Under the pieces are notes generated by a model. That model was not told the origin of the DNA, ran no database searches, and saw only the letters and a list, made by a program, of their open reading frames with translations. This document shows, piece by piece, positions 4,305 to 49,691 of a stretch of DNA of 64,000 nt. The position numbers and the translations under genes were made by a program. Within the stretch, counting starts at the first letter, position 1; every line of letters starts with the position of its first letter. Origin of the DNA: Trypanosoma brucei. Taxonomy: Eukaryota. The stretch covers positions 864,001 to 928,000 of the forward strand of contig CP000071.1 in the NCBI GenBank assembly GCA_000002445.1, given 5' to 3'.

Positions 4305-4586
4305 TTCTGGTATCTTACTGTACGTATCTATCGCTCGCAAGCTAGGACAACTGAACAATTCTGCTTCCACTACTAAGTGACACGCCAACTTCACAGCAAC
4401 AACCTCTTCGCCATATCAAAAAAAAAAAAAGGAACAGAAGCGGGACTTGAAGGGTTTCTTTTGATGCACAAAAGAGTTCGAAGCGATATTTTTAGAAACT
4501 AGAACGTGTAGTACAAGACAAACACCGACTGTTCTTCTCCCGCTGCACTGCCCACTGTATGGTCAAGCCTCAGCCTATTCATCCCC

Positions 4587-6833
4587 TCAAAGAAGGGCGA
4601 GAGTCTCGAGCAAATGGTCCAACTGCAACCTAAACCCTTGTATTTGTTGGTTTTTCTCCTCGACAATCATTTCTGCCTTCTGTTTCGTCAGCACAATTTC
4701 GAAGTCTGCAACCCGCCTGATTTCTTCAATTCTGTGCAGGGCTTCCTTTTCTTTTTGAGCTTGGCGCTTCTCCAAGTAAGACAGTCGTTCCGACACACTC
4801 TGGAGAAACGCCTGAATACGCGACCTGTTGAGTGGGAGTCTTGAAATGTCTTTGCATATCCATGAGTTTCCTTCACACACTTGCTTCAACTCTGTGATTG
4901 ACATCAATTCTTTTTTATGAGAGTCTTTAATGTGCTCAATGTCGTCCCTGTAGCTTTGCTGTATGCACTGCAGCTGCGCTTGATATTCTCGCCTTGCTGA
5001 ACGTAGTCGCTCATCCAAGCGAGCATGGGCCTCTCCAAGGGACTGCTGGCTCTCCTCCAGCAATCGCTTCGCCACCTCCAGCTGGGAGGTCAAACTAGCG
5101 ATTTGCGCTTGCATGGTTGATATTACCTGCATCGGTGGAGGGATAATAAAGGCATCATACGACGGTGATGTCAAAGCTATTCCCGCCTTTGGTTCACGCT
5201 CCAGCTGTGACAATTGGGGCTCCGGTGCACCGTTTTCCCTAAGCAATGCAATTGAAGTTTCTTTTGGTGGACCACTCGCAGCGGGCGCTTCCGACAGCAC
5301 CGTGTCTTTTGTTGCCCCTTGGGTGACGCACTGTTCGTTCCCGTTCCCTCGAGGATACCTGCCACTGGTAAGGTTATTGGCTCCAACGACAGATGAAGGG
5401 GGGTTCACCTGTTCCTTGTCACGTAAGGACTGCTTGGCTTCGGTCAATTGCTTTTCCAGATCGTGAACCCGGCGTGACTGGGCTTGTAAGAGTTTAAACT
5501 TCAGCTGTTCTTCTAGCTTTTCAATTTTTTCTTGATATTGCATTCTCATGCGGTCAACTTCGACCCGGAGCCGAGTGACTGCCGCTTCGGCGCAGCGGTC
5601 CTTTTCTACAAGTGCGTCTTCGAGTTCTTTTATTCTATGGTTGAGTTGCTTAAATATCTTGGTATCTTGAACGGGTGGCTGACAACTTCTGATCAGCTGC
5701 GCTATGCTGTTGGGGTGCTTTTGGCCTAGGGTTTCCTCCAACTCGATAATTCGCCTTGTGAGGTGTTGCACGCGAGTGTCTTCCTTTGCTTTCGTACCTT
5801 TGCTGATATCCTCTGCTTTCCCGGACCCGCGCAACTTCGCCCGCAGGCAGCGGATGGTGTCCTGCTGCTCTTTGAGAAGCTGTTGCTGGGAGTCGTTAAA
5901 TTCTTGGTTGTTGACGTACCATGCGATCTTTCTTGCCATTTCTTTCACCACCTCTTCGTGCTCTGTTTCTCTTCGTTTTAAGTCGACACGCAGATTGCGA
6001 TTCTCCAATTCGAGTTCTTCAAGCCTTTTCATGTCGACGCTACTTCGATGGATGTTGAGGTCCCCCCTTTCCCTCCGAAGAAGCTCAAGTTCTAGCTCAA
6101 GTTCTCTAACCCGCATCCTTTGCTGATTTGTCTCCATGAGCAACTCATCAGTGCTATGATGTGTCCCCTGGCGCGTCTCCATCCTAGTGGTTAAGTCACC
6201 ACTCCGAAGTGTCTGCTTACTATTGGGCTGCCCGTCTGAAACGGGCGTGTGAGCCCCCCTCCCACTAAGCGCGCTAGTCAGTTCACGCACTTTCAACAGC
6301 AGAGCCTTCTTTTCAGTATGCAACTTTTCATTGTCCTCATCCAACGCCCTAACAACACGTTCTTGCATTGCTATTTCCTTCTGGATCTCCTCCAATTCAG
6401 CTCTGGTTACCGGCTCTCCCGAGAGAAGCGCTTCCCGAATCACACTGCACTTACTCTGGGCATCCGTACAGTGTATGCTGTCTCCTTGAGCCCTCGTTGA
6501 TTCCACCCGATTGGGGGCTTCAACAACTGTTTCCAATGGCTGATTTGCATCCACCACAGTGTCCATTAGAATTTCCTCCGAATGTTTTGACCATGATGAT
6601 GAGACACCCCCCTTTCCTGCCGTAGCAAAGCATGTCGTGCCCTCCTTGTTTCGATGTGCGCACTGTCCTTGTTCCGCGCGGGTAGCGCCCTTTTCAACCT
6701 CTCGCCACACCGTTAAGGGGGCCATAGGGTTTGTGGAGTATCTCTCCCCGGGAGAAGTTGTGCACTGGTCCCCGTCTTGCCCTTCGTCTTGAACAAAACG
6801 CTCACTGATCTCTTTGACACTGTGATCCGCCAT
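4587..6833 (-). CDS. Hypothetical coiled-coil protein (~748 aa). The ORF-track entry extends to 7391, but the first 186 codons are pyrimidine-rich UTR-like sequence; the ATG (MADHSVKEISERF...) is at 6833.
   Basis: On the minus strand a long polypyrimidine tract ends in ...ctgcctttcagatagtttctaag immediately 5' of the ATG at 6833-6831 (a classic trans-splice acceptor). The protein is dominated by coiled-coil segments (ELELELELLRRERGDL, KIEKLEEQLKFKLLQAQ). Confidence 0.6.
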   Translation of the reverse strand: MADHSVKEISERFVQDEGQDGDQCTTSPGERYSTNPMAPLTVWREVEKGATRAEQGQCAHRNKEGTTCFATAGKGGVSSSWSKHSEEILMDTVVDANQPLETVVEAPNRVESTRAQGDSIHCTDAQSKCSVIREALLSGEPVTRAELEEIQKEIAMQERVVRALDEDNEKLHTEKKALLLKVRELTSALSGRGAHTPVSDGQPNSKQTLRSGDLTTRMETRQGTHHSTDELLMETNQQRMRVRELELELELLRRERGDLNIHRSSVDMKRLEELELENRNLRVDLKRRETEHEEVVKEMARKIAWYVNNQEFNDSQQQLLKEQQDTIRCLRAKLRGSGKAEDISKGTKAKEDTRVQHLTRRIIELEETLGQKHPNSIAQLIRSCQPPVQDTKIFKQLNHRIKELEDALVEKDRCAEAAVTRLRVEVDRMRMQYQEKIEKLEEQLKFKLLQAQSRRVHDLEKQLTEAKQSLRDKEQVNPPSSVVGANNLTSGRYPRGNGNEQCVTQGATKDTVLSEAPAASGPPKETSIALLRENGAPEPQLSQLEREPKAGIALTSPSYDAFIIPPPMQVISTMQAQIASLTSQLEVAKRLLEESQQSLGEAHARLDERLRSARREYQAQLQCIQQSYRDDIEHIKDSHKKELMSITELKQVCEGNSWICKDISRLPLNRSRIQAFLQSVSERLSYLEKRQAQKEKEALHRIEEIRRVADFEIVLTKQKAEMIVEEKNQQIQGFRLQLDHLLETLALL

Positions 6834-6965
6834 CTTAGAAACTATCTGAAAGGCAGAAAAGCATTGACGTACATTGTAAACAAAAGGTTTGCTTATACTT
6901 GTCAGGCATTGAACCAAAACTGAGAAGACAGTAGTGACAAAAAGCCTGCGACTAAAATTGATTGA
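6834..6965 (-). promoter_or_regulatory. Polypyrimidine tract plus AG trans-splice acceptor for the 4587..6833 gene.
   Basis: The minus strand reads ...ttttgtcactactgtcttctcagttttggttcaatgcctgacaagtataagcaaaccttttgtttacaatgtacgtcaatgcttttctgcctttcag ATAGTTTCTAAG ATG. Confidence 0.55.
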
Positions 6966-8794
6966 AAAAGCTGTCAAGGAAGGGCGTCGTCGAAACAACT
7001 GTTTGTAGATAATGAGCCACGGAAGTAACTCCTCTGTGCGAAACCGAAGCAGAGTCCCCGTGTGACTGACACTTTGCGGATGAAAAGTGCGATACGTCCC
7101 CCCAAAACAGAACCCCTTTGGTTCCCGGAGGCTACAAAAGCCTGTATTGTGTAAAGAAAGACACAGCCTGGCAGTCGGCATCCAGCCTATCATTCTCTGT
7201 TTAACCCCTGTGCGGACATTTTCGTCTTGCACTTGTCGTCGACGTGACACCCGCCTCCACCAATGCCTAAGTAGTTTCAAAAGATTACATGCACCCAATA
7301 CCTCATCACGATGCCGTAAATGTGATGGTTGTAGAGCAAAGTTTCCTATGCTAGTCCACCGATGTTTGCCTACGCGTCCCACTAGTTCCATAGCACCCCT
7401 TTTAATGGAAGCGGAGACTTTCGCGCACGGCTACATAACCTGCCGCCCCCCCCGCTGTGGAGAGGCGGGTGCATGAGTATGGACATGTGTTGTAGCAACC
7501 AAAAGGCCCGTTTCCAGTTGCTGAGCGAAGGCGGTGACAACAACATAACCCCGTCCGGGTTGACATTGTAATAAACACACATAGCGCTAAACACTGTGAT
7601 CCCTTCACGCTGTTCCCACCGCACTCACGTTTTATTTTCACTCTGCAAGAAATCCTTATCTACCAATACAGGTTAGCCTCAGTCTCCTTACCACTAGATC
7701 TGCTGCGGAATACTCCATTAAGCCACCCACACAAAAATTGTCTAAGATGATAACCTTTTGCAAACTGCACACCGTATCGTGTAGTAAGAGCCAAGGTTGG
7801 TTAACTTTCCATCGCCTTAGTTAAGAGCTGCCGGCGTGGTTAGTAGGGCATTGAGTTAACCCTCATATTGAGCGACCAGTGCCAATGCACCAAAAGCCAG
7901 GGCAGAACTGCATTCATCTGTCTCAGCGGGCCGCATGACTACACGTATCTGGTCTCGCATCAATTTTCACTCAGTTTAGGACATCTACCGAATAGCAGCT
8001 AGCGCTGCAACTCTCCTGAGACACCAGACGCTCCAAGCCACTACTGGGTGCCGGTGCCCCACTTGTGGGGCAAAAGCAAGAGCCAATGGAGTTCGGTCTC
8101 AGGAGAAAACTATTGCGGCCTGGTTATGTTGCCATCAGACTAGGGAACCGCCGAGTCGTGCTGTGACATCGGTTTTCCATTAGCAGCCCCTCGGCACGTT
8201 TCATTGCATCGTCAGCAGTGCCACACGTACCAAGGTGACGTAAACCTTCTATACTAGAAGCAGCAACCGGACGAGACACCATTGAGACTAAACCGGTACA
8301 TCAAGCATTTGGCCATCCCCCAATCAGCAACACCCACGTGACGGCCACGGCAGCTAGCCGTACACACTGTTGAGGGCGTTTATTTTGCCAATCCTCTACG
8401 TTTAGGGAGCTTGCGACTGCTATGATAGTGAAAACTAGCATTTAGTGGCTTGTTGATGCACCCTACTATGCACCGAACAGTCACACCCTTTGCCCCAGCT
8501 CCCACCGTTACCGGTTGCAACGGAAGACACCACCACACACAATCTCGGAAAGTTCCTGTATGCACAGCAACATGTTCATAATGGACCAACATCCCAGATG
8601 CCTTCTCAGCAACAGCATCCGTACTTCACTTTCGTGACCTCTACTGTGCACCACATGCATGCGGAAGCTCATCAAAGAGCCCGAGCAATATGCTTTGCGT
8701 GGACTGCCGTGGCAATTTGCAGTACTTGCAGATAATGAATGTGCGCATGCTTTGTCCCACCAATACAAGTAACTATTTTGCATCGAAAGCGATC

Positions 8795-11700
8795 CTACTG
8801 ACTGTAACAATGAATCATCCGCTTCATTTCCTCAGTCGCTAGACATTCGGCAGGGTCAGTCTTTTCACGGAGCTCAATAGACGCGCCAACCTTCTGTAAG
8901 AAACACAAAACAGTGGCAGGTGACACTGTGTTGGTCTTCCAACCTAAAACAATATTAAGGGGACGAACAAGTTCCACAGTGGGTGTGTCATCTATCGCTT
9001 TGGTATCACAAATCAGTCGCAATAACGGGTTTGCTGCGTTCGCAGGGACAGTTTCGACAAGCTTCAAGAGTTCCCCAGAACCAGCGAGCCGATCCATTTT
9101 TAGTACAAGAGACGCCCACACAAGGGACAATAGCATCTCCACTTTTGAGAGTCCGAGTGCAACCTTCTCTGCATCGCGCGCGAAGAAGAGCAACAGTGAG
9201 CAAAGGGCAGCCGCTGGCAGATTGTCCAGGGGTAGCTTTTGGGAAAAATGAGCTATAAATTGCGTCGCTATTGGCCGCCTCTTCCCATTTTTTAACAGTC
9301 CCTCAGCAATCAAGCAGACGTCTAGCATACTTACTTCATCTCCGCTATCTACTAGGGATGCCATAAACCTGTCGAAGGTTTGGCTGCTCCCACCGAAACG
9401 AACGCAAAAAGTTACCGTATTCATCAGTGTCCTGTCAGTGAGTGGGGCCTTTTCAATATGCTTAAGACAGAAACGCCATAAACCGATCGCATGTGGCGTA
9501 AATCTTTTCGCCGAGTCGTTGTTCATTTGAATCAGACGTTGTAAAGCATGGGATACGACAAGAGAACACGTTAAACTGTTGCATTGGGGAGGAAATAGCG
9601 CCCCGGACTCACTACGTAGCAGTGCTTCTGCACGAGGTAAAGAAAACGATACACCATCTTCGGAGAACAGGGGAGCGACAATGTTGAGGAACGCAGTAAC
9701 GATATCATCATTTACTTTCCCGTCAGCATAACCCATTGAGCTGTTATCAAGATCGTTAATAATGACAGTAGCAATAGCTAGTGCTGCCTGAAGTGGATAC
9801 ACCCCTACCTCCCCATCACGAATTCTTTTGATCATAACAATAACAAGTTTTCGGGTCACATGGATCAGTGATTTCCACACGGCCTTTGCCGCTGAAGTCC
9901 ACATTGCGTTCACTAGTACCAGGGCTGCCCTCCAATCGGCCTCTACCCACTTTTCTCGTTCCACTACGTGGACGCATAACGAATCAACTCCGTGTAGTGC
10001 GCGCTCAAGGACGCACTTTTCATCAATGCCGAAGGCGCACAGCGCACCTACAAGACGGACTAGTATGTGGAAGGGGAGAGTCTGTAGACGTTGTTGGTCA
10101 CGAATAGTCCCGACAATATGGGGATGCAGCACACTGTATCGAGCATCTAATTCGTGCGCAGCAATCAAATAGAAGACAGCGCTCTCGTATCTGTTTCTGC
10201 CCAAGTCGTTCTGAAGCAACCGCGTTCCCACTGCCGACAGAGAGTTCAAAAGTACTGTGCGAGAGACACCGGCAGCTGCTCCGTCGAGGATCAGGGACAA
10301 ACCCCAATCTGGGTACTGAAGCACTTCCAGTCGAAGAAAAATAGGTGTCGAAACAGCAGTATACGGTTTGAAACCTCTTGAAGGGATGCGGAGTTTCGAA
10401 AGTGATCCCACAATCGCTGCACACTGAGTCATGGTAGAGCTCTTCATTCCTTTACAAGTGCACAAGGTCTCTAGTGAATGTGTCAGTCGTTCTAAGGGCA
10501 CACCCTCACTTTCAGACAGCATGAGTGCCTTTTCACATATCTGTAAAGCTACATCGCTAGAATTCGTGTCTTCTTCCGAGCATTTGCCCGAGACTTCATG
10601 TCTTTTCGTGTCTGTTTGCGGATAGCCTCCACCACGACACCCATGTTGGTAACCAAGCTCCCGACTGCGCTCGCGGATGGCGCACCAAATGAAATTATCC
10701 TTAATAGACAGTTTCATCACAGCATTGATAATGCGGGGTAGTTCCCACCGTGATGCATTACGAACAATTCCAGGTACAGTTTTAAAACACTCTCCAAGAT
10801 AAAATTTCCTTGAATTAACAGTCAAATTCCCATATGCTAACGCTTCAAGAATTATCCTCACCTGCTTGACGGTTGCTTTTTCAAGAGCGCACTGGGATAC
10901 CGGAGGAAACACACAAAAATTAAGGCGGTACATAAGGCGATCGAGAAAAGCCACATCAGCTGCCACCGAATAAACATTCACCAGTGGTCCAATTGCTTCT
11001 GCGCGAGTGACTGCAGCAGCGTCTCCCAATGGACGTAGCCAGAAGTCAATTCCATTGTACATCAACATGCGTAGAAGTATGTGAAACAAAATTTGTGCGT
11101 TTTTTTGTAATTTTGTCAGCCCACAATATGTAAGCGACTCCAAGACTGTGGAAATAATGAACCTATTTTGTATCTCCCCCTTTACTACCCGATGCACAAA
11201 GGTAAGCACAACACTGTCCAGGATCGCAAGAAGTTTTACCGTAAAGCTAGGGGAGAGGCAACCCAAACAATCGTTCTCCGGCCAAGAGACGTTGTTTATT
11301 ACACCTTCACTTTGGATTGGTACAACTCTATCTCCCGATCCAGATACGGAAACAATCTGACACAACCCGCACAGCAACAACAGGTCATTCCGAGGGGATG
11401 CACTTTCTACGCCGCCTGTTCGAATACCGTTCGCGACAATCGCTTCACAAACCTCAATGTACACTAGCCGCACTGGAATGATACTGGAGCAGAATGTGGA
11501 CAAACTCCAAAATAAATACACCAGCTTTTCCTGAGTGAGGAGTGTATAATCAACGCGCCTTACTCGTTCAAGCAACTCTTTCAAAATTGAGCTCTGCGCC
11601 TCTGCAGAAATACCGTTATCTTCTGAAGTAACGAGGCAACCCACCACATATGACAGTTCCGGAAGGAGTTCCACCTGGGCCCCACTTATAATTACTCTGA

Positions 11701-12190
11701 GGGCCTCTTGCGCATACGGAATAAACTTGGGGGATAAACGTGAACCCACAATCACGATGCTAGACAGTGCTTCCATTTGTTCTTCAGTTTTTAGAGTTGT
11801 CAGGAAGTGTGACTCGGCCAGGCGGTCCTGTATGCTGACGCACTCTACCAAACCACATGCATCGTTTTTCACCAACTGCCTTAGAAGCATGACAACTGTA
11901 GGACAAGGTAGCTCTGGAAGCCGGGCTAGATAAACCTTCTTGAGCCTCAACCAGTCTTCTCTTGAACCAACCCCAAGAGCCGAAGCTGACACAAGTAAGT
12001 CCGAAAAGATGTCTTTTGCGGGCAAGTGTTGAACATGACTGTGAAAAGCCTGTTGCTGCTCGTCAAAAGGCGGTTTACGGGGTTGTACTGAGGAAATTTC
12101 CGCTAAGACACCGACGCTTCTCGTCAATATTAACCTCAGCCTCTGTTGTGGCAACATGTATATGTATGTGGGCAGCGCCCTTGAATACAT
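8795..12190 (-). CDS. Large hypothetical protein (~1131 aa), leucine-rich and alpha-helical, possibly HEAT/ARM-like. No catalytic motif recognised.
   Basis: A 3.4 kb uninterrupted frame. The codon at 12193 is TTG, and the first ATG at 12190 is preceded on the minus strand by ttttatctgtttgctttattctgcag (polypyrimidine tract + AG). This is the first gene of the minus-strand unit, next to the strand-switch region. Confidence 0.6.
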   Translation of the reverse strand: MYSRALPTYIYMLPQQRLRLILTRSVGVLAEISSVQPRKPPFDEQQQAFHSHVQHLPAKDIFSDLLVSASALGVGSREDWLRLKKVYLARLPELPCPTVVMLLRQLVKNDACGLVECVSIQDRLAESHFLTTLKTEEQMEALSSIVIVGSRLSPKFIPYAQEALRVIISGAQVELLPELSYVVGCLVTSEDNGISAEAQSSILKELLERVRRVDYTLLTQEKLVYLFWSLSTFCSSIIPVRLVYIEVCEAIVANGIRTGGVESASPRNDLLLLCGLCQIVSVSGSGDRVVPIQSEGVINNVSWPENDCLGCLSPSFTVKLLAILDSVVLTFVHRVVKGEIQNRFIISTVLESLTYCGLTKLQKNAQILFHILLRMLMYNGIDFWLRPLGDAAAVTRAEAIGPLVNVYSVAADVAFLDRLMYRLNFCVFPPVSQCALEKATVKQVRIILEALAYGNLTVNSRKFYLGECFKTVPGIVRNASRWELPRIINAVMKLSIKDNFIWCAIRERSRELGYQHGCRGGGYPQTDTKRHEVSGKCSEEDTNSSDVALQICEKALMLSESEGVPLERLTHSLETLCTCKGMKSSTMTQCAAIVGSLSKLRIPSRGFKPYTAVSTPIFLRLEVLQYPDWGLSLILDGAAAGVSRTVLLNSLSAVGTRLLQNDLGRNRYESAVFYLIAAHELDARYSVLHPHIVGTIRDQQRLQTLPFHILVRLVGALCAFGIDEKCVLERALHGVDSLCVHVVEREKWVEADWRAALVLVNAMWTSAAKAVWKSLIHVTRKLVIVMIKRIRDGEVGVYPLQAALAIATVIINDLDNSSMGYADGKVNDDIVTAFLNIVAPLFSEDGVSFSLPRAEALLRSESGALFPPQCNSLTCSLVVSHALQRLIQMNNDSAKRFTPHAIGLWRFCLKHIEKAPLTDRTLMNTVTFCVRFGGSSQTFDRFMASLVDSGDEVSMLDVCLIAEGLLKNGKRRPIATQFIAHFSQKLPLDNLPAAALCSLLLFFARDAEKVALGLSKVEMLLSLVWASLVLKMDRLAGSGELLKLVETVPANAANPLLRLICDTKAIDDTPTVELVRPLNIVLGWKTNTVSPATVLCFLQKVGASIELREKTDPAECLATEEMKRMIHCYSQ

Positions 12191-12193
12191 CAA

Positions 12194-14179
12194 CCTATAC
12201 TGCAGAATAAAGCAAACAGATAAAAGCGTGGTCTCAAAGGTGGCTCATTTGAATATAAAGCATTGTTACAGCGACAGTCCTCGACTGCTCGTTCCTTCGG
12301 AATAGGCCACCCTCCGCAAGTCCCCCACACCAGAAGATGTGCTACAACGGAAACGAGCAACACCCCTCGCGTCTTTAGCGCACGGTAGGGGACCCGGTGT
12401 ATCTAGAAAGAACGAGGGGGGAAGGGGCCACAGCCGATGCCACTCCTAGTACCTGGTCACCAACTGCCCTCCATAAATTCTAGTCCTTCCTCACAGTGAC
12501 GCATCCCTCCATGCTGTGCCAGCCGTAACGGCCCGCGCACCGCACTCGCAATGTTCTCCAGCTCTGGCCGCAAATCGTAAGTGCAACAGCTCATTACCGT
12601 CGTCATGGCTGTAGTAAGCACCAGTGGTCGGTGCCACGGCTACGTCACCTACCACCTCTAAGACTCCATCATCGGCGGCTTGAGAGCCTCCGGATTCCTG
12701 TGGAAACGGGGCTGACGAGAAGTTCACGACTCCGGTTCACAGCGACAGCGGCATATTCTGCGGCCTCACTGCTAAAATGAAGATCCGCCTCCTTCAAAAA
12801 CAAAGCGCGGTTTTGAAGCAGTAGCTCACCAGGCAAAAAAAGGAACTACTTCGGCCCCCCGTTCAATGACGATCTCCACGGGAACCCAACCTCTTTGGCC
12901 AGTGACGGCGAGGACCCCTCGCGCTTCCACGCTCCGGTATAGTGCTTGCCCTTTCCTCACTCACCAGCGCGACCGCGCTTCTCAAACAGACTCGGCGTTT
13001 GCTGGTTTGGTGCGCCAACAGGTCCATACGCGGCACAATCCCGACGCAGGGAACACACCAGTACGTGGCGTGGCGACTGTGAGTTGGTGCCTGAAGCAGC
13101 ACATTCGTGTCGAACTGGTTTCTTGGGGTGCACGCATAAAGTGCGTGTCTGCCGCTGCAGTCATTAACATAACATTCTCTTTCCATGCCCTTCTCGATGG
13201 TGTTCCCCTTGTATGGGCACCGACGGTCTATCGCTTTACCTCCTTTTTTACTTTTTCTTTTTTAGGGTGGGGAACACAACCACCATGCACCATGCTACAG
13301 GGGTAGCGAACGGCAGCTATCACTCGCATGCCCACTTTCCGGGGACGGTATGAGCGTTCCAAGGTGACTCCTTTTTGCTTAGCAACAGAGGCAGGGAGGG
13401 ACCGCCACGAGCTGGATCGGCACAGCCGAACGTCGCGCCGCATGGCCGTATACGGGACTGGTTGACCTCCGCGCTGGCTGACGCCGGCCTATGAGTTCAA
13501 AGATCGAGAGCTGGAGCGTTTTCTCTCTTTGACCCACGGCTGGTCGTGGCGTTCTAATCCTACGTTGTGGCAGGAGGAGGGTGTGGAGTTCACTTTCCTC
13601 CGGGTGCGAGAAGGCGCCCTAATAGGGAAGATAGCTTGTGAATGCTTTCCCTTCTGGTGTGTTACCAGTCGGTGTCTGCTCTAAGCGGGGATGCCTGTGA
13701 GACGCGTTGGGTGCCGGCGCAGCAACGTGATTCTCTGTGGGCGTAGCCGTTGGTGGGGCGCGTAGCTTTATCTCTGGGGATGCTTAGTGTGCCACCACCA
13801 GTCTCGTGAGAGGGGTGTCGTGAATTTCCGCTGTCGGTGATGTTGGGGATTTTCGTTGTGTTTTCATCATGCCAGGGTGGGTAGGGGAGTTTTTTTTTTC
13901 GTTTTGAATGATGGTACGACCCGTGCGTCTGTGTCGGGGGTTGGGCAGGTCGTATTAATCTAGCTTTTCATTGCATTGATTTGCACGTCATTATTTTTAT
14001 TATTGATGTGTAGGAAACGTTGATGTACTTACGTGCTTGCAAGCACGCAGGCGCGTAAACTCTTCTCGTCTATACCAATTTAATGTTTTCATTTGCTTGT
14101 ATTAACACACATTGAATCCCGCCATATGGGGTCAAGTTTGTGGTACCCCACTGAGTTGCTAAGCGACAAATAGAGTTGA
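12194..14179. promoter_or_regulatory. Divergent strand-switch region between a minus-strand and a plus-strand polycistronic unit; candidate bidirectional RNA polymerase II transcription start zone.
   Basis: Minus-strand genes start at <=12190 and plus-strand genes start at >=14180. The plus strand is C/A-rich from 12250 to 12700 (so GT-rich on the minus strand) and becomes G/T-rich from 13450 to 13960 (ggtgtggag, gttggtggggcg, ggtgggtaggggagtttttttttt). This is a mirrored skew on the two coding strands. No convincing ORF inside. Confidence 0.5.
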
Positions 14180-15448
14180 ATGATGTCGAGTTTATTAGCG
14201 GACACTCAGTTTTCGGGGAGGGCAGGCTTACTCTCGTGGATCAACAAAATGTGCTCAGCGCAGTACCCTAGCGTTGTGTCGTTGCGCGACGGTGCTGCGT
14301 ATTGTAGTGTCGTTGATGCTACTGCTAACCGTGTTGCAGAGAACTGCGCAGCATTTGGCGTACCTGAACTTACTGTTTATCAGAAGCGTGCGAAACGGTC
14401 GTCACAGCTTCTTGCTCGAGTTTCATGGGGGGCAACCCTAGCAACTTGCGCCAACCAGGATCCCTCTCTGGACAGCATTAAGGAACGAAATCAGTGTGAA
14501 AGGAACATGCAAACGCTGCAAATTATGCTTTACGAGTGCCTGCCACCGGAGTTTTCTTTGGAGATAGACGTGCCGCGCTTGGCATGTGGTAAACTGCAAG
14601 ATCACGTGCAGCTGCTGAAGCGGATGCACATCATTGTAGGTAAACTTTTGACGTTATTTTCGAAACAGAGTCTTGAGCTAAGGATCCGATCGTCCAGCAA
14701 CTTCGGATGTGTGGAAGGTGTGAGAATAACGCGGGCAATGATGCTCCATCGTAAAGCATCACAAAAATATATAAACGACCATTCTCCTAGTCGGCTTAAG
14801 AGGGAAGATGCCGGCATTTTTGGCGATACTCGTGGTCATTTAAGCCTGAGTACAAATCAGAAAAGTGCTCCCAGGTGCGGTAATGACAATGTTATGCCCG
14901 TAACTCCTGGAAGATATACAGTATTATCTAAAGGACAAAAAGGACCCCCTAATTCCAGGGGGACACATTCTGCTGAAGGGACTGAGCTGCGCAGCAGCCT
15001 TTTTTCGACAGCAGGTTCTGATGGTTGTGGTTCCCTTGAATCCCGCTGCAGCTCAACTACGGGGATGTCAAAACCTTTTTTTACAGTACCCCAAAGGTAC
15101 TGTCATCTGCTTGGCGATTTACGGCAAGAGGTTGAGTCATACGAGGCCCTAGTGCAGGCCTCGCAGGGCCGGCATCAGCGGGGCCTCTTGGCAGGTGAAT
15201 GTGGTAGTAACGATGATGCCCAGATGGTGGAACGAAGTGGTATTAGCACGTTTCATGGGGATGCGCCAGTTGTATGCTTGGAGAGCTTGGGCACACTATC
15301 TGGGAAGAGGGATAAGCTTTGGCAAACTCTTAGTGTGATACATGGCACCGCAGCTCACAGGGCAACTGAATTGGGTATAGGGGGCAACGGTAAAGCGTCA
15401 GCGCCGCCCTTGCTAGGAGATATCTTGTCAGCACTAACCTTGCAGTAG
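14180..15448 (+). CDS. Hypothetical protein (422 aa) with an N-terminal EB1-type calponin-homology-like motif.
   Basis: True ATG ATG start at 14180. Residues 13-50 (GRAGLLSWINKMCSAQYPSVVSLRDGAAYCSVVD) match, as I recall it, the EB1/MAPRE CH-domain core ([31 protein letters not shown]). The rest is not recognisably EB1 and has no EEY tail. First gene of the plus-strand unit. Confidence 0.5.
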   Translation: MMSSLLADTQFSGRAGLLSWINKMCSAQYPSVVSLRDGAAYCSVVDATANRVAENCAAFGVPELTVYQKRAKRSSQLLARVSWGATLATCANQDPSLDSIKERNQCERNMQTLQIMLYECLPPEFSLEIDVPRLACGKLQDHVQLLKRMHIIVGKLLTLFSKQSLELRIRSSSNFGCVEGVRITRAMMLHRKASQKYINDHSPSRLKREDAGIFGDTRGHLSLSTNQKSAPRCGNDNVMPVTPGRYTVLSKGQKGPPNSRGTHSAEGTELRSSLFSTAGSDGCGSLESRCSSTTGMSKPFFTVPQRYCHLLGDLRQEVESYEALVQASQGRHQRGLLAGECGSNDDAQMVERSGISTFHGDAPVVCLESLGTLSGKRDKLWQTLSVIHGTAAHRATELGIGGNGKASAPPLLGDILSALTLQ

Positions 15449-17699
15449 GGTACTGGAAAGATTCTAGTGGCTATGTGGTGGATTGTTCCCGCACATTTTG
15501 ATACATATATTTTTTTCTTAGTGCTGTCTTAAATATTTATTTCATTTACTCCCCCTCTTTGTTCGCTCTACTACAATTGTGCTTGCTGGTACTATACCCG
15601 ATACTAGTGAAAGTATTTCTTGCACGTGTCCTCTCTTCACCACGGTAGGATGTCTTTCAAAAAAGTCTTATCGTGTAGAATATTCACGGAGATACGACGG
15701 GTTTACATGTGGCGTTTGTTCTACCTAGGATATCTATTCTAATGGTGACTTGAAGATCATTGTTGTGGGAATTTTTGACTGCTGTTAACTTCCCCTCCAA
15801 TTGTCGCTGGTGAACTGTGAAATTGGATTTCCATATCTGTACGTCTGTAGGAAACACATCAGCAAACCTCTATTACTGGCTTACGCACTTTTTCTGCTAT
15901 CGATGTTGATGTTTCTGGGAGCTATCGGGGCAAGTGCTGTGTCGCCCGACTTTTTTTTTTTGAAACAGATATCATTTGAATGTTGACGTTTGCTTGGTTT
16001 ACTTGGTGTTACCGAATCTCTCGTGTTCACCATGGAGTGTGGAGCATTGTATGCTGCGACGGTGCTAAGTATCACTGACAGTGAGGGCACGCGTGAATTA
16101 CGGTGGAGCACATTATATAGGCTTTTCTCCACACAGTCACTCAGTGCGCCCTCGTGGATTCTTACAAGAGTTCTGCGCTTCCCAACACCAGAGGGTTGGG
16201 AACATAGAAAATGGAAATCTAACTGCAACCAAGCACGGCTTCGTCGCTTCAGTCTACCGGATGCAGTTTTTTTTTTTTTACTTTGCCGTTGGCTGAACTT
16301 CTTTTTTTCTTGTTGTGCCTTGAAGATGCGTTCGGAGTGGAAGGAAGAGAGATGCTCTGGACGTGGGGCCAAGGGTGTGGGATGCCATGAAGAAGTAATT
16401 TCCCGGAGGATGATTGCAAGAATATTGGTTTACATAAATGATCAGCAATAGAATATCTGTTTAGTCACAAGTATAAGGATGTGATTTTGCATTTGCTGAA
16501 TCTGCACCTTTGTTCAGCGAGGCACATATCGGTTGAAGCGTCGTCCAGTGATGTGGGCAGCAGTGTTTTTTTTCTTGATTACTAGGATAGGTTATTAAAC
16601 AACAACGCGATATGAGGAGATATATAACTGTGATACATGTAACCTTCTTTGCATTATTTTTCACAGATGAAAGCAGACACCGTGAGACATCCTGCCTTTG
16701 GTCCTTCAACTTACGTTGAAGGGTGTGTACGTGTGGTGAGGGAAATCCGCTGCGTAAGTTCACTAGATTGGGTAACAGAATAGATCGGCGTATTCTGCGC
16801 GATGCGTTTGCAATGTAATGAATCTTTCCATCAGAACAGGGTGATGCCCACGGGGACTTTAGACATGAAGGCTGTTGATGTCAAGCCTTTTGGGCCTTTT
16901 TTTTTCACCCTTTCTCCGCCTTTTCTACATCGTGCGTATATTCTACGTAGAAGATTTTCATTTACTCCATCGCAACTGGTCGATGTCCGCGGATAATATG
17001 TCATGAAATAACTTTCCTCTCATCATGCCTACCCCGCCATTTTCTCACGACAGCACAGTAGCAGTCACACGCCTAAAAGTCGGCAAACAACATTAAAAAG
17101 GCAAGTATTTAGGAGTTTGTAACTCAAAGATGTATTACGGGTACTTCTGAGTGGATCAGATGAGTACTGTTACACTGGTTACCGCCTGCACGCATGTTCC
17201 GCTGTAGCAGATTATTTCATCAAGTGAAACTTGGGTTCACAAAGGCCCAGCGGGAACACCAACGCAGTAAAAGAATTCGGCCCAACGTCTGCTATCGCCC
17301 GCCCATTTTAAAGAAAAGGAACCAATGATGGAATTGCAGAAGGAATATAATTGGGATACAGTACCATTTAAGAAATAGAAAAAAACAAAAATATGTTGTA
17401 ATAACCATTTCAGGTACTAAATCAGAGAAAAAAAATATAAATATTTAAATAGAAGATCGATACAACAGCAAAACTGTCACACATCTCCAACAAACATGTA
17501 TTACGAGAAACCCATGCTACAACACGTACAGATGAAATGAAGGAAGCGAAGAAAGCTTATAAAAAAATTAAAAGTTTAATAGTGAAATCAGTCATCGACA
17601 GCTGTATCATTATAAGACGGGCTAAAACGCTCATAGAACATTCGTAAAACAATGAAAGACCATAAAAGGATGATTAAAAAACAACAACAACAAAAAAGC

Positions 17700-18493
17700 G
17701 GCTGCAGACGTCCCAGGAATCTTTGTCATCATTTTTTCCTGGGAACTTGGTTCTTGGCGGCCATCTCCACGAGGCTGTAGAAAGTTCGTGGCCAATTCAT
17801 ACGTTCTTCAAACATTTTGGCGTTCTGCCGGAGATATTTTCCTTGGAATCTGGCGAGCCGTCGTGGAGGTCACATGACTACATTGGTCGACCTGAGCATA
17901 TCGAGTCTCTGTATATGCTTTACCGTGCAACACGAGATCCTACATACCTCTTGATGGGAAAAGAACTGGCACTGGCCATTAACTTGCGTATGCGCACACC
18001 ATATGGGTTTTCTTCCGTAAGTGATGTAAGGTACCCGCATCATGATGGTGTTCACAGAGACTCGATGGAGAGTTTCATGATCGCGGAGACCCTGAAATAT
18101 TTGTATCTCTTGTTTGACGAGTGCAACGCTGTTCACATGCAGGGACGGATGGGCGGTCGCGCCTCACCGCATTGTGTTATGGACAGCGGTAGCGGCAGTA
18201 GCGTCAGCCACGTGGGGTGGGTTTTCAACACTGAAGCTCATCTGTTTCCTAATTCTGCCGAGTGGTGGGCGCCTACTTCCTTGGAGACCTTGGACAAGGA
18301 GGCTGAGGATCCCGCTGCTGCGCTCAGGCGCCAGCGTTTGGAGGTAATTGACGGTTTGCTCGCGAGTTTTGAGGAAGTGGACGGTGAGGTTGTTGGGGCG
18401 AATGATAAGGGTGGTGCAGCCCTGTACCAGTTCCACTGTGCCAATCACGCCCTGAGTGATATAGGGAGGCTGTCGAAGTCTGTGTTTCGATAA
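17700..18493 (+). pseudogene. 5'-truncated GH47 alpha-mannosidase copy; C-terminal ~256 codons only, with no in-frame ATG at its start.
   Basis: From 17700 onward (gcggctgcagacgtcccaggaatc) the sequence is near-identical to the 3' part of the full copies (19691-20483). The frame opens with a TTG and ends at the shared stop (...LSKSVFR*). Confidence 0.75.
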
Positions 18494-18716
18494 TTTGTCG
18501 AGGCGCAAGGATGTATTAGCATAGTTTGCGCAGCGTACCGTTCTTGGTTTTCACCCCGTGGTTGCTTGGACTCCTCCCCTGCTTGAAAGTTCTGTTTGTC
18601 CCTCTGTACACGAACTTGCTGTGCGTAACTGCCGTTCTTTATTGCTTTGTGCTTGAGCTGCTTCTCTCCGCTGTTGGCTCCACGATGAATGCTCACGAGG
18701 ATCAACGTTTTTGAAG

Positions 18717-20483
18717 ATGCCGTGGGTTCGTGCTTTACTAGTTCTCGTGACGGTATTTTTTGTCCGTCTTCCGTCCGTGATGAGAGAGGAAAGGTTCCAC
18801 CAGTACGGAAATGGTGAAAGTAGAAAGTTGCATAATGTCAGCGATATGCATCCTATTCAAGCTGAGATGCTTCCTTATGTGCGTGACATGATTGACCACG
18901 CGTTTGGTTCATACATCAAATACGCCTTTCCCAAAGATGAATTGTGTCCTGTGAGTGGTACTGGGAAGAATACGATGGGTGGCTATGGCTGGACCCTTAT
19001 TGACTCTCTCGATACACTAGCAATTGCCGGGTTTCACAAAGAATTTCGTCGCCACGCGAAGTGGGTGGAAGAGCACTTGACCTTCGATATTGACGAATCA
19101 GTGTCGGTATTTGAGACGACTATTCGAGCTCTTGGAGGTCTTCTGGCTGCTCACTTCATGTACGAGGAGGGCATAGTCCCAATTATCCCTTCGGAGCACG
19201 ACTACAACGGCGGGTTCTTGCGGCTCGCTGTGGATCTTGCAGATCGTCTGATGCCCTGTTTTGACACGCCCACTGGGATACCATATGGGGCGATTAATTT
19301 ACGCCGTGGGGTTAGTGGTGGGGAATCGCAGCTGGCCAACACGGCCGGCGCTGGGACGTTGTTAATGGAGATGACGGTACTGTCGAGGATCACAGGCGAT
19401 GAAAAATACGAGCGTGCGGCGCGGCGTGCATCTGAGGCTCTTTTTGCGGCCAGAGATTCTCAAACTGAGCTTATGGGGAATCACATTCATACTCATACAG
19501 GAATTTGGAGACATGGTGAATCATCCGTTGGAGGGAACATTGATAGCGTCATTGAATACTTTATCAAATCACATAGTATGAGTGGGGACATTGGGGACTG
19601 GGAGCGGTTCGAGAGGACTGCGAGAGCTGTGAACCGCTATGTGCGGAAGGGTGGAATGCTGCTAGCAGCTAGCATGTATAGTGGACGGCGGCTGCAGACG
19701 TCCCAGGAATCTTTGTCATCATTTTTTCCTGGGAACTTGGTTCTTGGCGGCCATCTCCACGAGGCTGTAGAAAGTTCGTGGCCAATTCATACGTTCTTCA
19801 AACATTTTGGCGTTCTGCCGGAGATATTTTCCTTGGAATCTGGCGAGCCGTCGTGGATGTCACATGACTACGTTGGTCGACCTGAGCATATCGAGTCTCT
19901 GTATATGCTTTACCGTGCAACACGAGATCCTACATACCTCTTGATGGGAAAAGAACTGGCACTGGCCATTAACTTGCGTATGCGCACGCCATATGGGTTT
20001 TCTTCCGTAAGTGATGTAAGGTACCCGCATCATGATGGTGTTCACAGAGACTCGATGGAGAGTTTCATGATCGCGGAGACCCTGAAATATTTGTATCTCT
20101 TGTTTGACGAGTGCAACGCTGTTCACATGCAGGGACGGATGGGCGGTCGCGCCTCACCGCATTGTGTTATGGACAGCGGTAGCGGCAGTAGCGTCAGCCA
20201 CGTGGGGTGGGTTTTCAACACTGAAGCTCATCTGTTCCCTAATTCTGCCGAGTGGTGGGCGCCTACTTCCTTGGAGACCTTGGACAAGGAGGCTGAGGAT
20301 CCCGCTGCTGCGCTCAGGCGCCAGCGTTTGGAGGTAATTGACGGTTTGCTCGCGAGTTTTGAGGAAGTGGACGGTGAGGTTGTTGGGGCGAATGATAAGG
20401 GTGGTGCAGCCCTGTACCAGTTCCACTGTGCCAATCACGCCCTGAGTGATATAGGGAGGCTGTCGAAGTCTGTGTTTCGATAA
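18717..20483 (+). CDS. GH47 class I alpha-1,2-mannosidase / EDEM-like, array copy 1 (~588 aa from MPWVRALLVLV...).
   Basis: Matches the GH47 core as I recall it from human ER mannosidase I: ...WTLIDSLDTLAIAGFHKEFRRHAKWV..FETTIRALGGLLAAHF against [42 protein letters not shown], plus SMESFMIAETLKYLYLLF and FNTEAHLFP against FNTEAHPLP, and DSVIEYFIK against DSYYEYLLK. It has an N-terminal hydrophobic signal/anchor. The codon at 18711 is TTG and the ATG is at 18717. Its pre-catalytic N-terminal region is unique compared with copies 2-4. Confidence 0.9.
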   Translation: MPWVRALLVLVTVFFVRLPSVMREERFHQYGNGESRKLHNVSDMHPIQAEMLPYVRDMIDHAFGSYIKYAFPKDELCPVSGTGKNTMGGYGWTLIDSLDTLAIAGFHKEFRRHAKWVEEHLTFDIDESVSVFETTIRALGGLLAAHFMYEEGIVPIIPSEHDYNGGFLRLAVDLADRLMPCFDTPTGIPYGAINLRRGVSGGESQLANTAGAGTLLMEMTVLSRITGDEKYERAARRASEALFAARDSQTELMGNHIHTHTGIWRHGESSVGGNIDSVIEYFIKSHSMSGDIGDWERFERTARAVNRYVRKGGMLLAASMYSGRRLQTSQESLSSFFPGNLVLGGHLHEAVESSWPIHTFFKHFGVLPEIFSLESGEPSWMSHDYVGRPEHIESLYMLYRATRDPTYLLMGKELALAINLRMRTPYGFSSVSDVRYPHHDGVHRDSMESFMIAETLKYLYLLFDECNAVHMQGRMGGRASPHCVMDSGSGSSVSHVGWVFNTEAHLFPNSAEWWAPTSLETLDKEAEDPAAALRRQRLEVIDGLLASFEEVDGEVVGANDKGGAALYQFHCANHALSDIGRLSKSVFR

Positions 20484-20709
20484 TTTGTTGAGCCGCAAGG
20501 ATGTATTAGCATAGTTTGCGCAGCGTACCGTTCTTGGTTTTCACCCCGTGGTTGCTTGGACTCCTCCCCTGCTTGAAAGTTCTGTTTGTCCCTCTGTACA
20601 CGAACTTGCTGTGCGTAACTGGCGTTCTTTATTGCTTTGTGCTTGAGCTGCTTCTCTCCCCTGTTGCATAGGAATTTGTATACCGTTTTGGGTTTTGTAG
20701 GCGGTGATT
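20484..20709 (+). promoter_or_regulatory. Intra-array intergenic spacer (~220 bp) that must hold both the polyadenylation site of the upstream copy and the trans-splice acceptor of the downstream copy. It is repeated at 18494-18716, 22504-22729 and 24524-24749.
   Basis: Pyrimidine-rich run (ttcttggttttcaccccgtggttgcttggactcctcccctgcttgaaagttctgtttgtccctctgtacac...ttctctcccctgttgcatag) ending in AG, about 40 nt before the ATG. Confidence 0.5.
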
Positions 20710-22503: not shown

Positions 22504-22729
22504 TTTGTCGAGGCGCAAGGATGTATTAGCATAGTTTGCGCAGCGTACCGTTCTTGGTTTTCACCCCGTGGTTGCTTGGACTCCTCCCCTGCTTGAAAGT
22601 TCTGTTTGTCCCTCTGTACACGAACTTGCTGTGCGTAACTGGCGTTCTTTATTGCTTTGTGCTTGAGCTGCTTCTCTCCCCTGTTGCATAGGAATTTGTA
22701 TACCGTTTTGGGTTTTGTAGGCGGTGATT

Positions 22730-24523: not shown

Positions 24524-24749
24524 TTTGTCGAGGCGCAAGGATGTATTAGCATAGTTTGCGCAGCGTACCGTTCTTGGTTTTCACCCCGTGGTTGCTTGGA
24601 CTCCTCCCCTGCTTGAAAGTTCTGTTTGTCCCTCTGTACACGAACTTGCTGTGCGTAACTGCCGTTCTTTATTGCTTTGTGCTTGAGCTGCTTCTCTCCC
24701 CTGTTGTATAGGAATTTGTATACCGTTTTGGGTTTTGTAGGCGGTGATT

Positions 24750-47398: not shown

Positions 47399-47416
47399 TG
47401 TGTGTGTGTGTGTGTG
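47399..47416. repeat. (TG)9 microsatellite.
   Basis: tgtgtgtgtgtgtgtgtg, read directly. Confidence 0.9.
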
Positions 47417-49658: not shown

Positions 49659-49659
49659 C

Positions 49660-49686
<27 letters not shown>
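49659..49686. repeat. (AT)14 microsatellite.
   Basis: atatatatatatatatatatatatatat, read directly. Confidence 0.9.

Positions 49687-49691
<5 letters not shown>

What the first reader, a model, noticed from the sequence alone, without database searches (positions are those of the whole stretch)
12194..14179. Divergent strand-switch region with mirrored GT-rich skew on the two outward coding strands
Transcription units diverge here. The ~1.99 kb gap has no credible ORF. The first ~500 nt flanking the minus unit are C/A-rich on the plus strand (GT-rich as transcribed on minus). The ~500 nt flanking the plus unit are G/T-rich on plus, including ggtgggtaggggagtttttttttt at 13872-13895. This matches the GT-rich, promoter-less pattern reported for kinetoplastid RNA polymerase II start zones (H2A.Z and H4K10ac deposition). 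The internal ~700 nt (12860-13460) is compositionally neutral and could hold a small non-coding transcript.
Basis: partly seen in the sequence, partly recalled or inferred. Interest (0 to 1): 0.55.

Follow-up and report, generated by a model that had tools for sequence, protein, structure and literature searches.

The report
Known trypanosome divergent transcription start region
This 2-kb gene-free gap is the already catalogued point on Trypanosoma brucei chromosome 8 where two gene arrays are transcribed outward in opposite directions; the mirrored G+T bias is real but ordinary for this organism.

Summary
The window is T. brucei TREU927 chromosome 8, Tb927_08_v4:864001-928000. The gap 12194-14179 lies between Tb927.8.2880 (-) and Tb927.8.2890 (+). 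Kolev et al. 2010 (Table S14) already list this pair as 'Divergent' RNA polymerase II unit starts.

G+T is 0.434 in the left 500 nt, 0.506 in the middle and 0.628 in the right 500 nt. The cumulative G+T excess of the whole 64 kb has its minimum at 13060, inside the gap. The left/right contrast is the strongest in the window.

Three caveats apply:
- Each flank alone resembles ordinary 5' flanks inside the same gene arrays. The minus side is weak.
- None of the 157 published start-region 10-mers occurs on the + strand of the right flank.
- The quoted motif is at 13876-13899, and one of its G residues varies within the species.

The right, GT-rich half is not empty. It is the body of a published spliced-leader-spliced, polyadenylated transcript, Tb8.NT.52 (13266-14014, +). 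That transcript starts right after a 26-nt pyrimidine tract plus AG. For the outermost spliced RNAs, initiation must therefore occur in the roughly 1-kb core 12233-13265.

The 146-codon ORF shows no sign of coding. No tRNA or Rfam family was found. Verdict: real, correctly interpreted in outline, already known.

The parts
8795..12190 (-). Tb927.8.2880 coding sequence (1131 aa), first gene of a three-gene minus-strand transcription unit
   Evidence: ORF. The exact protein is TREU927 XP_847120. Kolev Table S1 gives the ORF as 872795-876190, which fixes the offset at 864000. It is listed as the first ORF of a 'Divergent' unit.
12232..12234 (-). 5'-most spliced-leader addition site of Tb927.8.2880 (12232) with its AG dinucleotide (12234-12233 on the minus strand)
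   Evidence: [quoted passage not shown] The + strand reads 'ct' at 12233-12234.
12194..12693 (-). Left flank: C/A-rich on the + strand, so moderately G/T-rich and clearly G-rich as read on the minus strand
   Evidence: G+T on + is 0.434 and C is 0.318. The C-richest 400-nt window of the 64 kb starts at 12301. Only 13 GT-dense 10-mers on the minus strand, the 81st percentile.
12233..13265 (.). Core of 1033 nt between the two outermost spliced-leader acceptor sites. Inferred zone in which polymerase II must start in both directions to make the first processed RNAs. Holds the skew switch near 13060.
   Evidence: Bounded by the published SL sites at 12232 (-) and 13266 (+). Global minimum of cumulative G+T excess at 13060. 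GC 0.554. No tRNA or Rfam match. That initiation occurs here is an inference.
12866..13306 (+). 146-codon ORF, most likely non-coding
   Evidence: No Pfam hit. Only relative is gambiense 'hypothetical protein, unlikely'. Not annotated in TREU927, where the flanking proteins have consecutive accessions. All 4 of 4 and 3 of 3 substitutions are non-synonymous. Absent from T. theileri and T. melophagium loci. It also runs across the SL acceptor site at 13266.
13238..13265 (+). Polypyrimidine tract (cctccttttttactttttcttttt) plus AG: trans-splice acceptor signal of the first plus-strand RNA
   Evidence: Sequence. AG at 13264-13265 lies directly before the published SL-addition site at 13266.
13266..14014 (+). 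Tb8.NT.52: published SL-trans-spliced, polyadenylated 'novel transcript' of 748 nt at about 1 RNA per cell, with no ATG-initiated ORF longer than 45 codons (longest, TTG-initiated: 51 aa). It covers the GT-rich right flank.
   Evidence: Kolev Table S7 gives 877266-878014, + strand. Ends are defined as the 5'-most SL site and the 3'-most poly(A) site. ORF list. G+T 0.606. Folding z-score is no better than for its reverse complement or a coding control.
13700..13949 (+). Cluster of GT-dense 10-mers, including ggtgggtaggggag plus T10 at 13876-13899
   Evidence: 48 10-mers with at least 9 of 10 G/T in 250 nt, the 94th-97th percentile of the window but below the intergenic regions at 26 kb and 47 kb. 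G3+ tracts at 7 per 200 nt against 2.5 on average. No canonical G-quadruplex motif. Position 13879 is G here and C in gambiense and equiperdum.
13990..14136 (+). Candidate acceptor signals for Tb927.8.2890: pyrimidine-rich stretches with AG at 14012-14013 and 14135-14136. The site actually used is unresolved.
   Evidence: Sequence only. The 3'-most poly(A) site of Tb8.NT.52 is 14014. No held table gives the SL site of Tb927.8.2890.
14180..15448 (+). Tb927.8.2890 coding sequence (422 aa, calponin-homology domain protein by UniRef name), first annotated gene of the plus-strand unit that runs to Tb927.8.3520
   Evidence: ORF. The exact protein is TREU927 XP_847121. Listed as the first ORF of a 'Divergent' unit.

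Best explanation
The gap is the divergent strand-switch region of T. brucei chromosome 8 between Tb927.8.2880 and Tb927.8.2890. It is a bidirectional RNA polymerase II transcription start region.

Polymerase II starts in both directions in or near the roughly 1-kb GC-rich core (12233-13265). It probably does so from two separate, oppositely oriented, dispersed promoters set in H2A.Z/H2B.V, H4K10-acetylated chromatin.

Leftward transcripts are first trans-spliced at 12232 to give the Tb927.8.2880 mRNA. Rightward transcripts are first trans-spliced at 13266, after the pyrimidine tract 13238-13263, to give the apparently non-coding RNA Tb8.NT.52. That RNA is polyadenylated by 14014, presumably coupled to trans-splicing of Tb927.8.2890.

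The mirrored G+T excess is the usual coding-strand bias of trypanosome transcription units, changing sign at the switch near 13060. The GT/G-tract cluster at 13700-13950 may help directionality or nucleosome exclusion. It is not needed to explain where the first transcripts start.

Shown: gene arrangement, skew switch, the two published SL sites and their sequence signals, the published listing as a divergent start, and conserved arrangement in other trypanosomes. Inferred: the exact initiation zone, the chromatin state here, and any role of the GT cluster.
For: - Window identity and offset: three ORFs match Kolev Table S1 coordinates with one offset of 864000. The flanking proteins are identical to TREU927 XP_847119-121.
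- Both units are listed as 'Divergent' starts. The paper states that 5'-triphosphate reads are enriched at every divergent unit and coincide with modified and variant histones.
- SL sites at 12232 (-) and 13266 (+) each sit directly after an AG. The latter follows a 26-nt pyrimidine tract.
- The global minimum of cumulative G+T excess is at 13060. The left/right contrast is in the top 0.29% of the window.
- The same gene pair diverges in T. theileri (1078-nt gap) and T. melophagium (2684-nt gap). In both, the skew minimum lies inside the gap (L003 9211, L004 7552), next to a stretch of about 70% GC followed by long T and G runs. Both T. congolense orthologues carry the same contig label.
- General model: polymerase II and primary transcripts peak at the 5' ends of H2A.Z regions. 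Each divergent region has two unidirectional promoters.
Against: - No chromatin or nascent-RNA track for this locus could be inspected here. The evidence for initiation is a published list plus a general statement.
- Initiation in T. brucei is dispersed over kilobases. Confining it to 12233-13265 holds only for the outermost spliced RNAs, and more starts further out are likely.
- Tb927.8.2880 appears in a table of ORFs with SL sites inside the ORF. Its main acceptor site may therefore differ from the 5'-most one at 12232.
- There is no primary sequence conservation of the core between T. brucei and T. theileri or T. melophagium (best E = 0.095), so no conserved promoter motif was shown.
Confidence: 0.88

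Rival explanations
1. The GT-rich flanks are themselves the promoters, as in the first reader's stronger reading. On this view the G/T tracts on each outward coding strand recruit or orient polymerase II and trigger H2A.Z deposition, as Wedel's synthetic GT elements do.
For: Synthetic promoters built from coding-strand-enriched G/T 10-mers drive orientation-dependent transcription and H2A.Z deposition. There is a GT-dense cluster at 13700-13949 and a raised G-tract density on the respective coding strands. The orthologous regions in T. theileri and T. melophagium have much longer T and G runs on the plus side.
Against: None of the 157 published 10-mers lies on the + strand in 13460-14179, and only 3 lie on the minus strand anywhere in the gap. 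Ordinary intergenic regions at 26, 42, 45-48 and 58 kb carry dozens. Flank G+T equals that of ordinary 5' flanks. The minus side is weak, at the 81st percentile. The cluster lies about 450-700 nt downstream of an SL acceptor that is in use, so it cannot be upstream of the starts that feed Tb8.NT.52. Position 13879 in the motif varies within the species. Poly-T and poly-GT elements were reported to lie outside the essential core promoter of another divergent region.
Confidence: 0.25
2. The gap hides a protein-coding gene, the 146-codon ORF 12866-13306 that is annotated in T. b. gambiense. If so, the plus unit would start further left and the 'gap' would be smaller.
For: The ORF is open in TREU927, gambiense and equiperdum and is annotated in DAL972.
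Against: The annotators' own label is 'unlikely'. There is no Pfam hit and no relative among 5.8 billion proteins outside T. brucei. All substitutions are non-synonymous. The ORF is interrupted by a mapped SL acceptor at 13266. It is not among Kolev's novel transcripts with peptides or homologues.
Confidence: 0.03
3. The interior holds a small structured RNA gene (tRNA, snRNA or snoRNA, made by polymerase III or II) that would itself define the unit boundary, as at 'next to tRNA' starts.
For: Many T. brucei unit starts lie next to tRNA, snRNA or rRNA genes.
Against: ARAGORN finds no tRNA in the whole window. Rfam finds nothing at gathering scores in the window, nor at E<=1 in 12000-14400. Kolev classes this start as 'Divergent', not 'next to tRNA'. 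Folding z-scores of the core are about 0, and that of Tb8.NT.52 equals its controls.
Confidence: 0.03
4. The region's main role is as a replication origin or ORC1/CDC6 binding site, with the composition switch reflecting replication rather than transcription.
For: ORC1/CDC6 sites and origins in T. brucei coincide with transcription-unit boundaries (title and abstract of PMC3607257).
Against: Nothing locus-specific was found in the held supplements. The skew follows gene orientation over short distances, here with a three-gene minus unit, which fits transcription rather than replication forks. This role would not exclude transcription initiation.
Confidence: 0.1

Closest known systems
Divergent strand-switch regions / transcription start regions of T. 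brucei (Siegel 2009; Kolev 2010; Wedel 2017)
   Same: Two polycistronic units point outward. There is no tRNA or snRNA gene. The coding-strand G+T bias changes sign inside the gap. The region is listed by name in Kolev's Table S14. The first SL acceptor sites lie within a few hundred nt of the centre.
   Different: Nothing essential. Compared with the published average it is a mild example. It has no G10 run, no GT-dinucleotide repeats and none of the enriched 10-mers on the plus flank. The minus unit has only three genes.
Synthetic GT-rich promoter elements GT_210_nt and GT_416_nt (Wedel et al. 2017)
   Same: G- and T-rich on the coding strand, with a T10 run and G tracts at 13876-13899.
   Different: The synthetic elements are concatenated homopolymer and GT-repeat 10-mers. 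The natural cluster here contains none of those 10-mers exactly, reaches only the 94th-97th percentile of GT-dense 10-mers in its own window, and lies inside a processed transcript.
Sequence-specific unidirectional core promoters in T. brucei divergent regions (Cordon-Obras et al. 2022, known here only through PMC11796357 and PMC13532274)
   Same: The model fits the anatomy: two oppositely oriented start points in a core between the first processing sites, with GT and poly-T elements outside the essential part.
   Different: The paper and its motif were not available, so no match could be tested. No conserved block was found between species.
Promoter-proximal non-coding transcripts at Pol II start sites (Kolev 2010 'novel transcripts' and non-SL polyadenylated RNAs at start regions)
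   Same: Tb8.NT.52 is a low-abundance RNA of about 1 copy per cell with no ATG-initiated ORF over 45 codons (longest, TTG-initiated: 51 aa). It is the first processed product of the plus unit.
   Different: It is SL-trans-spliced, since its 5' end is defined by an SL site. The start-site RNAs discussed in Kolev's text are instead under-represented in SL libraries.

Membership tests
T. brucei divergent Pol II transcription start region (dSSR/dTSR) | Two protein-coding gene arrays oriented head-to-head, transcribed outward | tested here: met
   All large ORFs left of 12193 are on the minus strand and all those right of 14180 are on the plus strand. Published unit table.
T. brucei divergent Pol II transcription start region (dSSR/dTSR) | Experimentally mapped initiation (5'-triphosphate RNA enrichment) at the site | tested here: met
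   Literature only. Kolev Table S14 lists both units as 'Divergent' starts, and the text says enrichment was seen at every divergent unit. The raw track for this locus was not seen.
T. brucei divergent Pol II transcription start region (dSSR/dTSR) | Enrichment of H2A.Z/H2B.V, H4K10ac, H3K4me3 and BDF3 over 5-10 kb | not testable with these tools
   No ChIP data are accessible.
T. brucei divergent Pol II transcription start region (dSSR/dTSR) | Coding-strand G-over-C and T-over-A skew that changes sign at the switch | tested here: met
   Cumulative G+T minimum at 13060 and GC-skew minimum at 13340. The contrast is in the top 0.29%.
T. brucei divergent Pol II transcription start region (dSSR/dTSR) | No Pol III or snRNA gene at the boundary (separates 'Divergent' from 'next to tRNA/snRNA' starts) | tested here: met
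GT-rich promoter element sensu Wedel 2017 | Presence, on the coding strand at the 5' end of the start region, of the 10-mers enriched at least 6-fold (long G or T runs, GT repeats) | tested here: not met
   0 of 157 10-mers on the + strand in 12194-14179. There are 3 on the minus strand, at 12209, 12795 and 13240. The first belongs to a pyrimidine tract at 12205-12230 next to the start codon, which is not the mapped acceptor site (12232).
GT-rich promoter element sensu Wedel 2017 | Orientation-dependent reporter activity and H2A.Z deposition when moved elsewhere | not testable with these tools
   Needs transfection.
Sequence-specific Pol II core promoter (Cordon-Obras 2022) | Match to the 75-bp core or its motif; focused start site | not tested
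   The paper is not held. Only second-hand descriptions were available.
Trans-spliced, polyadenylated long non-coding RNA | SL addition site after a polypyrimidine tract plus AG; poly(A) site; no conserved ORF | tested here: met
   Tb8.NT.52 coordinates and definitions. Pyrimidine tract and AG. ATG-initiated ORFs are at most 45 codons and the longest ORF, TTG-initiated, is 51 aa. The non-coding status is inferred, not proven.

The most novel reading that the evidence does not exclude
Tb8.NT.52 is the G/U-rich, SL-spliced RNA made from the first 750 nt of the plus unit. It might be more than a by-product. It or its transcription could act in cis, for example through R-loop or G-tract formation, to set promoter direction or the H2A.Z boundary of this start region. 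The GT cluster at 13700-13950 would then work as RNA or as a non-template strand rather than as a DNA promoter motif. My evidence neither supports nor excludes this.
Probability: 0.05. Interest if true: 0.5.

Novelty: already known. Interest (0 to 1): 0.12.

Why it matters
It matters little beyond annotation. The locus is one of about 70 divergent Pol II start regions of T. brucei that have been catalogued since 2009-2010, and the coding-strand G/T bias at such sites is textbook for kinetoplastids.

Two points are useful. First, at this locus the two outermost spliced-leader sites bracket a core of only about 1 kb in which both first transcripts must begin. That makes it a compact, gene-free candidate for promoter dissection. 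Second, the conspicuous GT-rich stretch lies downstream of the first acceptor site, inside a processed RNA. This is a concrete caution against equating GT-richness with the promoter.

Tried and rejected
- Small RNA gene in the gap: ARAGORN found none. Rfam found none, at gathering scores for the window or at E<=1 for 12000-14400.
- Coding potential of the 146-aa and 107-aa ORFs: no Pfam hit, no homologues outside T. brucei, only non-synonymous changes.
- Canonical G-quadruplex motifs (G3+ tracts, loops up to 7 or 12 nt): none in 12000-14300 on either strand.
- RNA structure of Tb8.NT.52: the tool gave z = -2.99 with 20 shuffles. My repeat with 32 shuffles gave -1.96, against -2.39 for the reverse complement and -1.81 for a coding control, so there is no signal. 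The first attempt timed out.
- Repeats and palindromes in the gap: only short, low-identity pairs and weak tandem hits inside the pyrimidine tract.
- Sequence conservation of the gap with T. theileri, T. melophagium and T. grayi: best E = 0.095, for a T-run plus G-rich stretch. A GGTGGGGRAAC pattern suggested by eye does not occur in the window.
- CpG-island-like character: CpG observed/expected is 0.90-0.95, average for the window. GC of 0.55-0.57 is about +1.7 sd, not the top.
- Retrieving TREU927 or T. congolense DNA for the locus failed.
- Cordon-Obras 2022 and Siegel 2009 are not held.
- Tiengwe 2012 and Siegel 2010 supplements gave nothing on this locus.
- Wedel Dataset EV2 is a sequencing log, not a list of start regions.
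Full report
**What the window is.**
The two ORFs that flank the gap encode proteins identical to T. brucei brucei TREU927 XP_847120 (1131 aa) and XP_847121 (422 aa). They are 99% identical to T. b. gambiense chromosome 8 proteins.

Kolev et al. 2010 (PMC2936537), Table S1, gives these ORF coordinates:
- Tb927.8.2870: 868587-871391.
- Tb927.8.2880: 872795-876190.
- Tb927.8.2900: 881678-882493.

These equal window ORFs 4587-7391, 8795-12190 and 17678-18493 with one offset of 864000. The window is therefore Tb927_08_v4:864001-928000. The finding is the gap between Tb927.8.2880 (-) and Tb927.8.2890 (+).

**Check of the observation.**
The gap is 1986 nt.

G+T on the + strand:

| Stretch | G+T |
|---|---|
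| 12194-12693 | 0.434 |
| 12860-13460 | 0.506 |
| 13680-14179 | 0.628 |

The highest 500-nt G+T value in the whole window (0.656) starts at 13501. The C-richest 400-nt stretch of the window (0.342) starts at 12301. The cumulative (G+T)-(A+C) curve of all 64 kb has its global minimum at 13060.

Comparing two 500-nt windows 1486 nt apart at every position, the observed right-minus-left difference (0.194) is reached by 0.29% of positions. All of the best ones start at 12031-12171. So the mirrored asymmetry is real and is the strongest such contrast in the window.

Two corrections:
- The quoted motif is at 13876-13899.
- The mirror is lopsided. Read on the minus strand, the left flank has only 0.566 G+T.

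**How special are the flanks?**
They are less special than the finding implies.
- The 500 nt upstream of the other plus-strand genes have 0.54-0.62 G+T, except the A-rich stretch before the mannosidase pseudogene. Those upstream of the other two minus-strand genes have 0.52-0.54.
- Intergenic regions of the plus array reach 0.59-0.63.
- The density of 10-mers with at least 9 G/T peaks at 13700-13949 (48 in 250 nt). That is the 94th-97th percentile, below the intergenic regions at 26 kb and 47 kb. The left flank is at the 81st percentile.
- I took the 157 10-mers that Wedel et al. [quoted passage not shown] None lies on the + strand anywhere in the gap. Three lie on the minus strand, at 12209, 12795 and 13240. 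Ordinary intergenic regions of the window hold dozens.
- What distinguishes the gap from ordinary spacers is higher GC (0.55-0.57 against 0.32-0.53) and G rather than T on the respective coding strands.
- There is no canonical G-quadruplex motif.
- Position 13879, inside the G-tract motif, is C in gambiense and equiperdum.

**What lies inside the gap.**
There is no tRNA and no Rfam family.

The longest ORF (146 aa, 12866-13306) is annotated only in gambiense, as 'hypothetical protein, unlikely'. It has no Pfam match and carries only amino-acid-changing substitutions between strains. Overall the gap differs from gambiense and equiperdum at about 1.2% of positions, against about 0.5% in the flanking coding sequence.

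The gap is nevertheless not transcript-free. Kolev's Table S7 lists the novel transcript Tb8.NT.52 at 877266-878014 on the + strand, at about 1 RNA per cell. That is window 13266-14014. In those tables the 5' end is the 5'-most spliced-leader addition site and the 3' end is the 3'-most poly(A) site.

The sequence agrees. Positions 13238-13263 are a 26-nt pyrimidine tract, 13264-13265 are AG, and 13266 follows. The longest ATG-initiated ORF in the transcript has 45 codons and the longest overall, TTG-initiated, has 51.

On the other side, the 5'-most SL site of Tb927.8.2880 is 876232, which is window 12232. It sits directly after an AG on the minus strand.

The two outermost acceptor sites bracket a 1033-nt core (12233-13265) that contains the skew switch.

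**Is it a start region?**
Kolev's Table S14 lists 'Tb927.8.2880 -> Tb927.8.2860, -, Divergent' and 'Tb927.8.2890 -> Tb927.8.3520, +, Divergent'. The text says 5'-triphosphate reads were enriched at every divergent unit, at the sites marked by modified and variant histones, in both sense and antisense.

Wedel et al. place polymerase II and small primary transcripts at the 5' ends of H2A.Z domains, with a 4:1 sense bias. Later work, summarised in PMC11796357 and PMC13532274, reports two separate unidirectional core promoters per divergent region, with poly-T and poly-GT elements outside the essential 75 bp.

I could not inspect any track for this locus. The chromatin state and exact start points here are inferred.

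**Comparative evidence.**
The same two genes diverge in T. theileri (L003, gap 8923-10000) and T. melophagium (L004, gap 7317-10000). In both, the cumulative G+T minimum lies inside the gap (9211 and 7552). It sits next to a stretch of about 70% GC, followed by very long T and G runs on the plus side and A runs toward the minus gene.

Both T. congolense orthologues are labelled as coming from the same annotated contig, but the DNA could not be fetched. The T. grayi contig is too short upstream to judge.

Primary sequence of the gap is not conserved between T. brucei and these species (best E = 0.095). The arrangement and the composition switch are old. No specific motif is.

**Mechanism proposed.**
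Polymerase II starts in both directions within or near 12233-13265.
- Leftward RNA is trans-spliced at 12232 to make the Tb927.8.2880 mRNA, followed by two more genes.
- Rightward RNA is trans-spliced at 13266 to make Tb8.NT.52. Its polyadenylation, at or before 14014, is presumably coupled to trans-splicing of Tb927.8.2890. The acceptor site of Tb927.8.2890 I could not fix.

The G+T bias is the general coding-strand bias of these units, changing sign at the switch. The GT/G-tract cluster at 13700-13950 may assist direction or nucleosome exclusion, but it lies downstream of a used acceptor site.

I give 0.88 to the start-region explanation and 0.25 to the stronger claim that the GT flanks are the promoters. 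The alternatives rank as follows: hidden coding gene 0.03, small RNA gene 0.03, replication origin as main role 0.1. The last is not exclusive.

**Verdict.**
The locus is already catalogued. Interest is low.

Noticed in passing
window 15449-17722 (Tb8.NT.53 at 15649-16950; Tb8.NT.54 at 17054-17675): The 2.3-kb 'empty' spacer after Tb927.8.2890 carries two more published novel transcripts. In T. theileri, T. melophagium and T. grayi the matching interval holds a 770-793-aa DUF229 gene and other ORFs. tblastn of the T. theileri proteins finds no trace of them anywhere in this window. Gambiense annotates a 139-aa ORF there.
   Followed up: partly
window 17200-17720: Strongly A-rich, low-GC stretch on the + strand (G+T 0.37, GC about 0.30, AT skew up to +0.45), just upstream of the mannosidase pseudogene. 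It is the lowest G+T region of the window although it lies inside a plus-strand unit.
   Followed up: no
window 17678-26063: Tandem array of glycosyl hydrolase family 47 (alpha-mannosidase) genes. It consists of a pseudogene fragment (Tb927.8.2900), then one 590-aa and two 599-aa copies, then a shorter 439-aa ORF. Three of the 220-nt spacers have the same length and base composition. Copy number and lengths differ in gambiense and equiperdum.
   Followed up: no
window 4587-7391 (Tb927.8.2870, CEP162-like): The annotated start codon is probably too far upstream. Kolev maps the 5'-most SL site at 870845 (window 6845), inside the ORF. The 3' end of the Tb927.8.2880 transcript (870954, window 6954) also lies inside it. 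Gambiense annotates a shorter 872-aa protein.
   Followed up: partly
window 7392-8794: The Tb927.8.2880 mRNA has a 3' UTR of about 1.8 kb. T. theileri and T. melophagium have an extra 704-711-aa minus-strand gene at this position. tblastn of the T. theileri protein gives no hit in the window.
   Followed up: partly
window 45090-51478: Kolev's tables give Tb927.8.3020 (ORF 42951/43053-45089) a predominant poly(A) site at 915478. That implies a 3' UTR of about 6.4 kb, spanning low-complexity A-rich and GT-rich tracts and a 235-aa ORF at 49496-50203.
   Followed up: no
window 1-12193: The minus-strand unit has only three genes (Tb927.8.2880-2860). The two distal genes are A/C-rich on their own coding strand (G+T 0.48), so the 'coding strand is GT-rich' rule fails for them.
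   Followed up: partly
window 60068-64000: An open frame of at least 1311 codons on the + strand runs off the 3' end of the window and so is missing from the ORF list. It is the most GC- and G-rich part of the window (GC 0.61, G 0.385).
   Followed up: partly
L003 8960-9360 (T. theileri) and L004 7380-7740 (T. melophagium): The orthologous divergent regions show a much sharper form of the same anatomy: A runs toward the minus gene, a core of about 200 nt at roughly 70% GC, then T16-T20 and G8-G9 runs on the plus side.
   Followed up: partly
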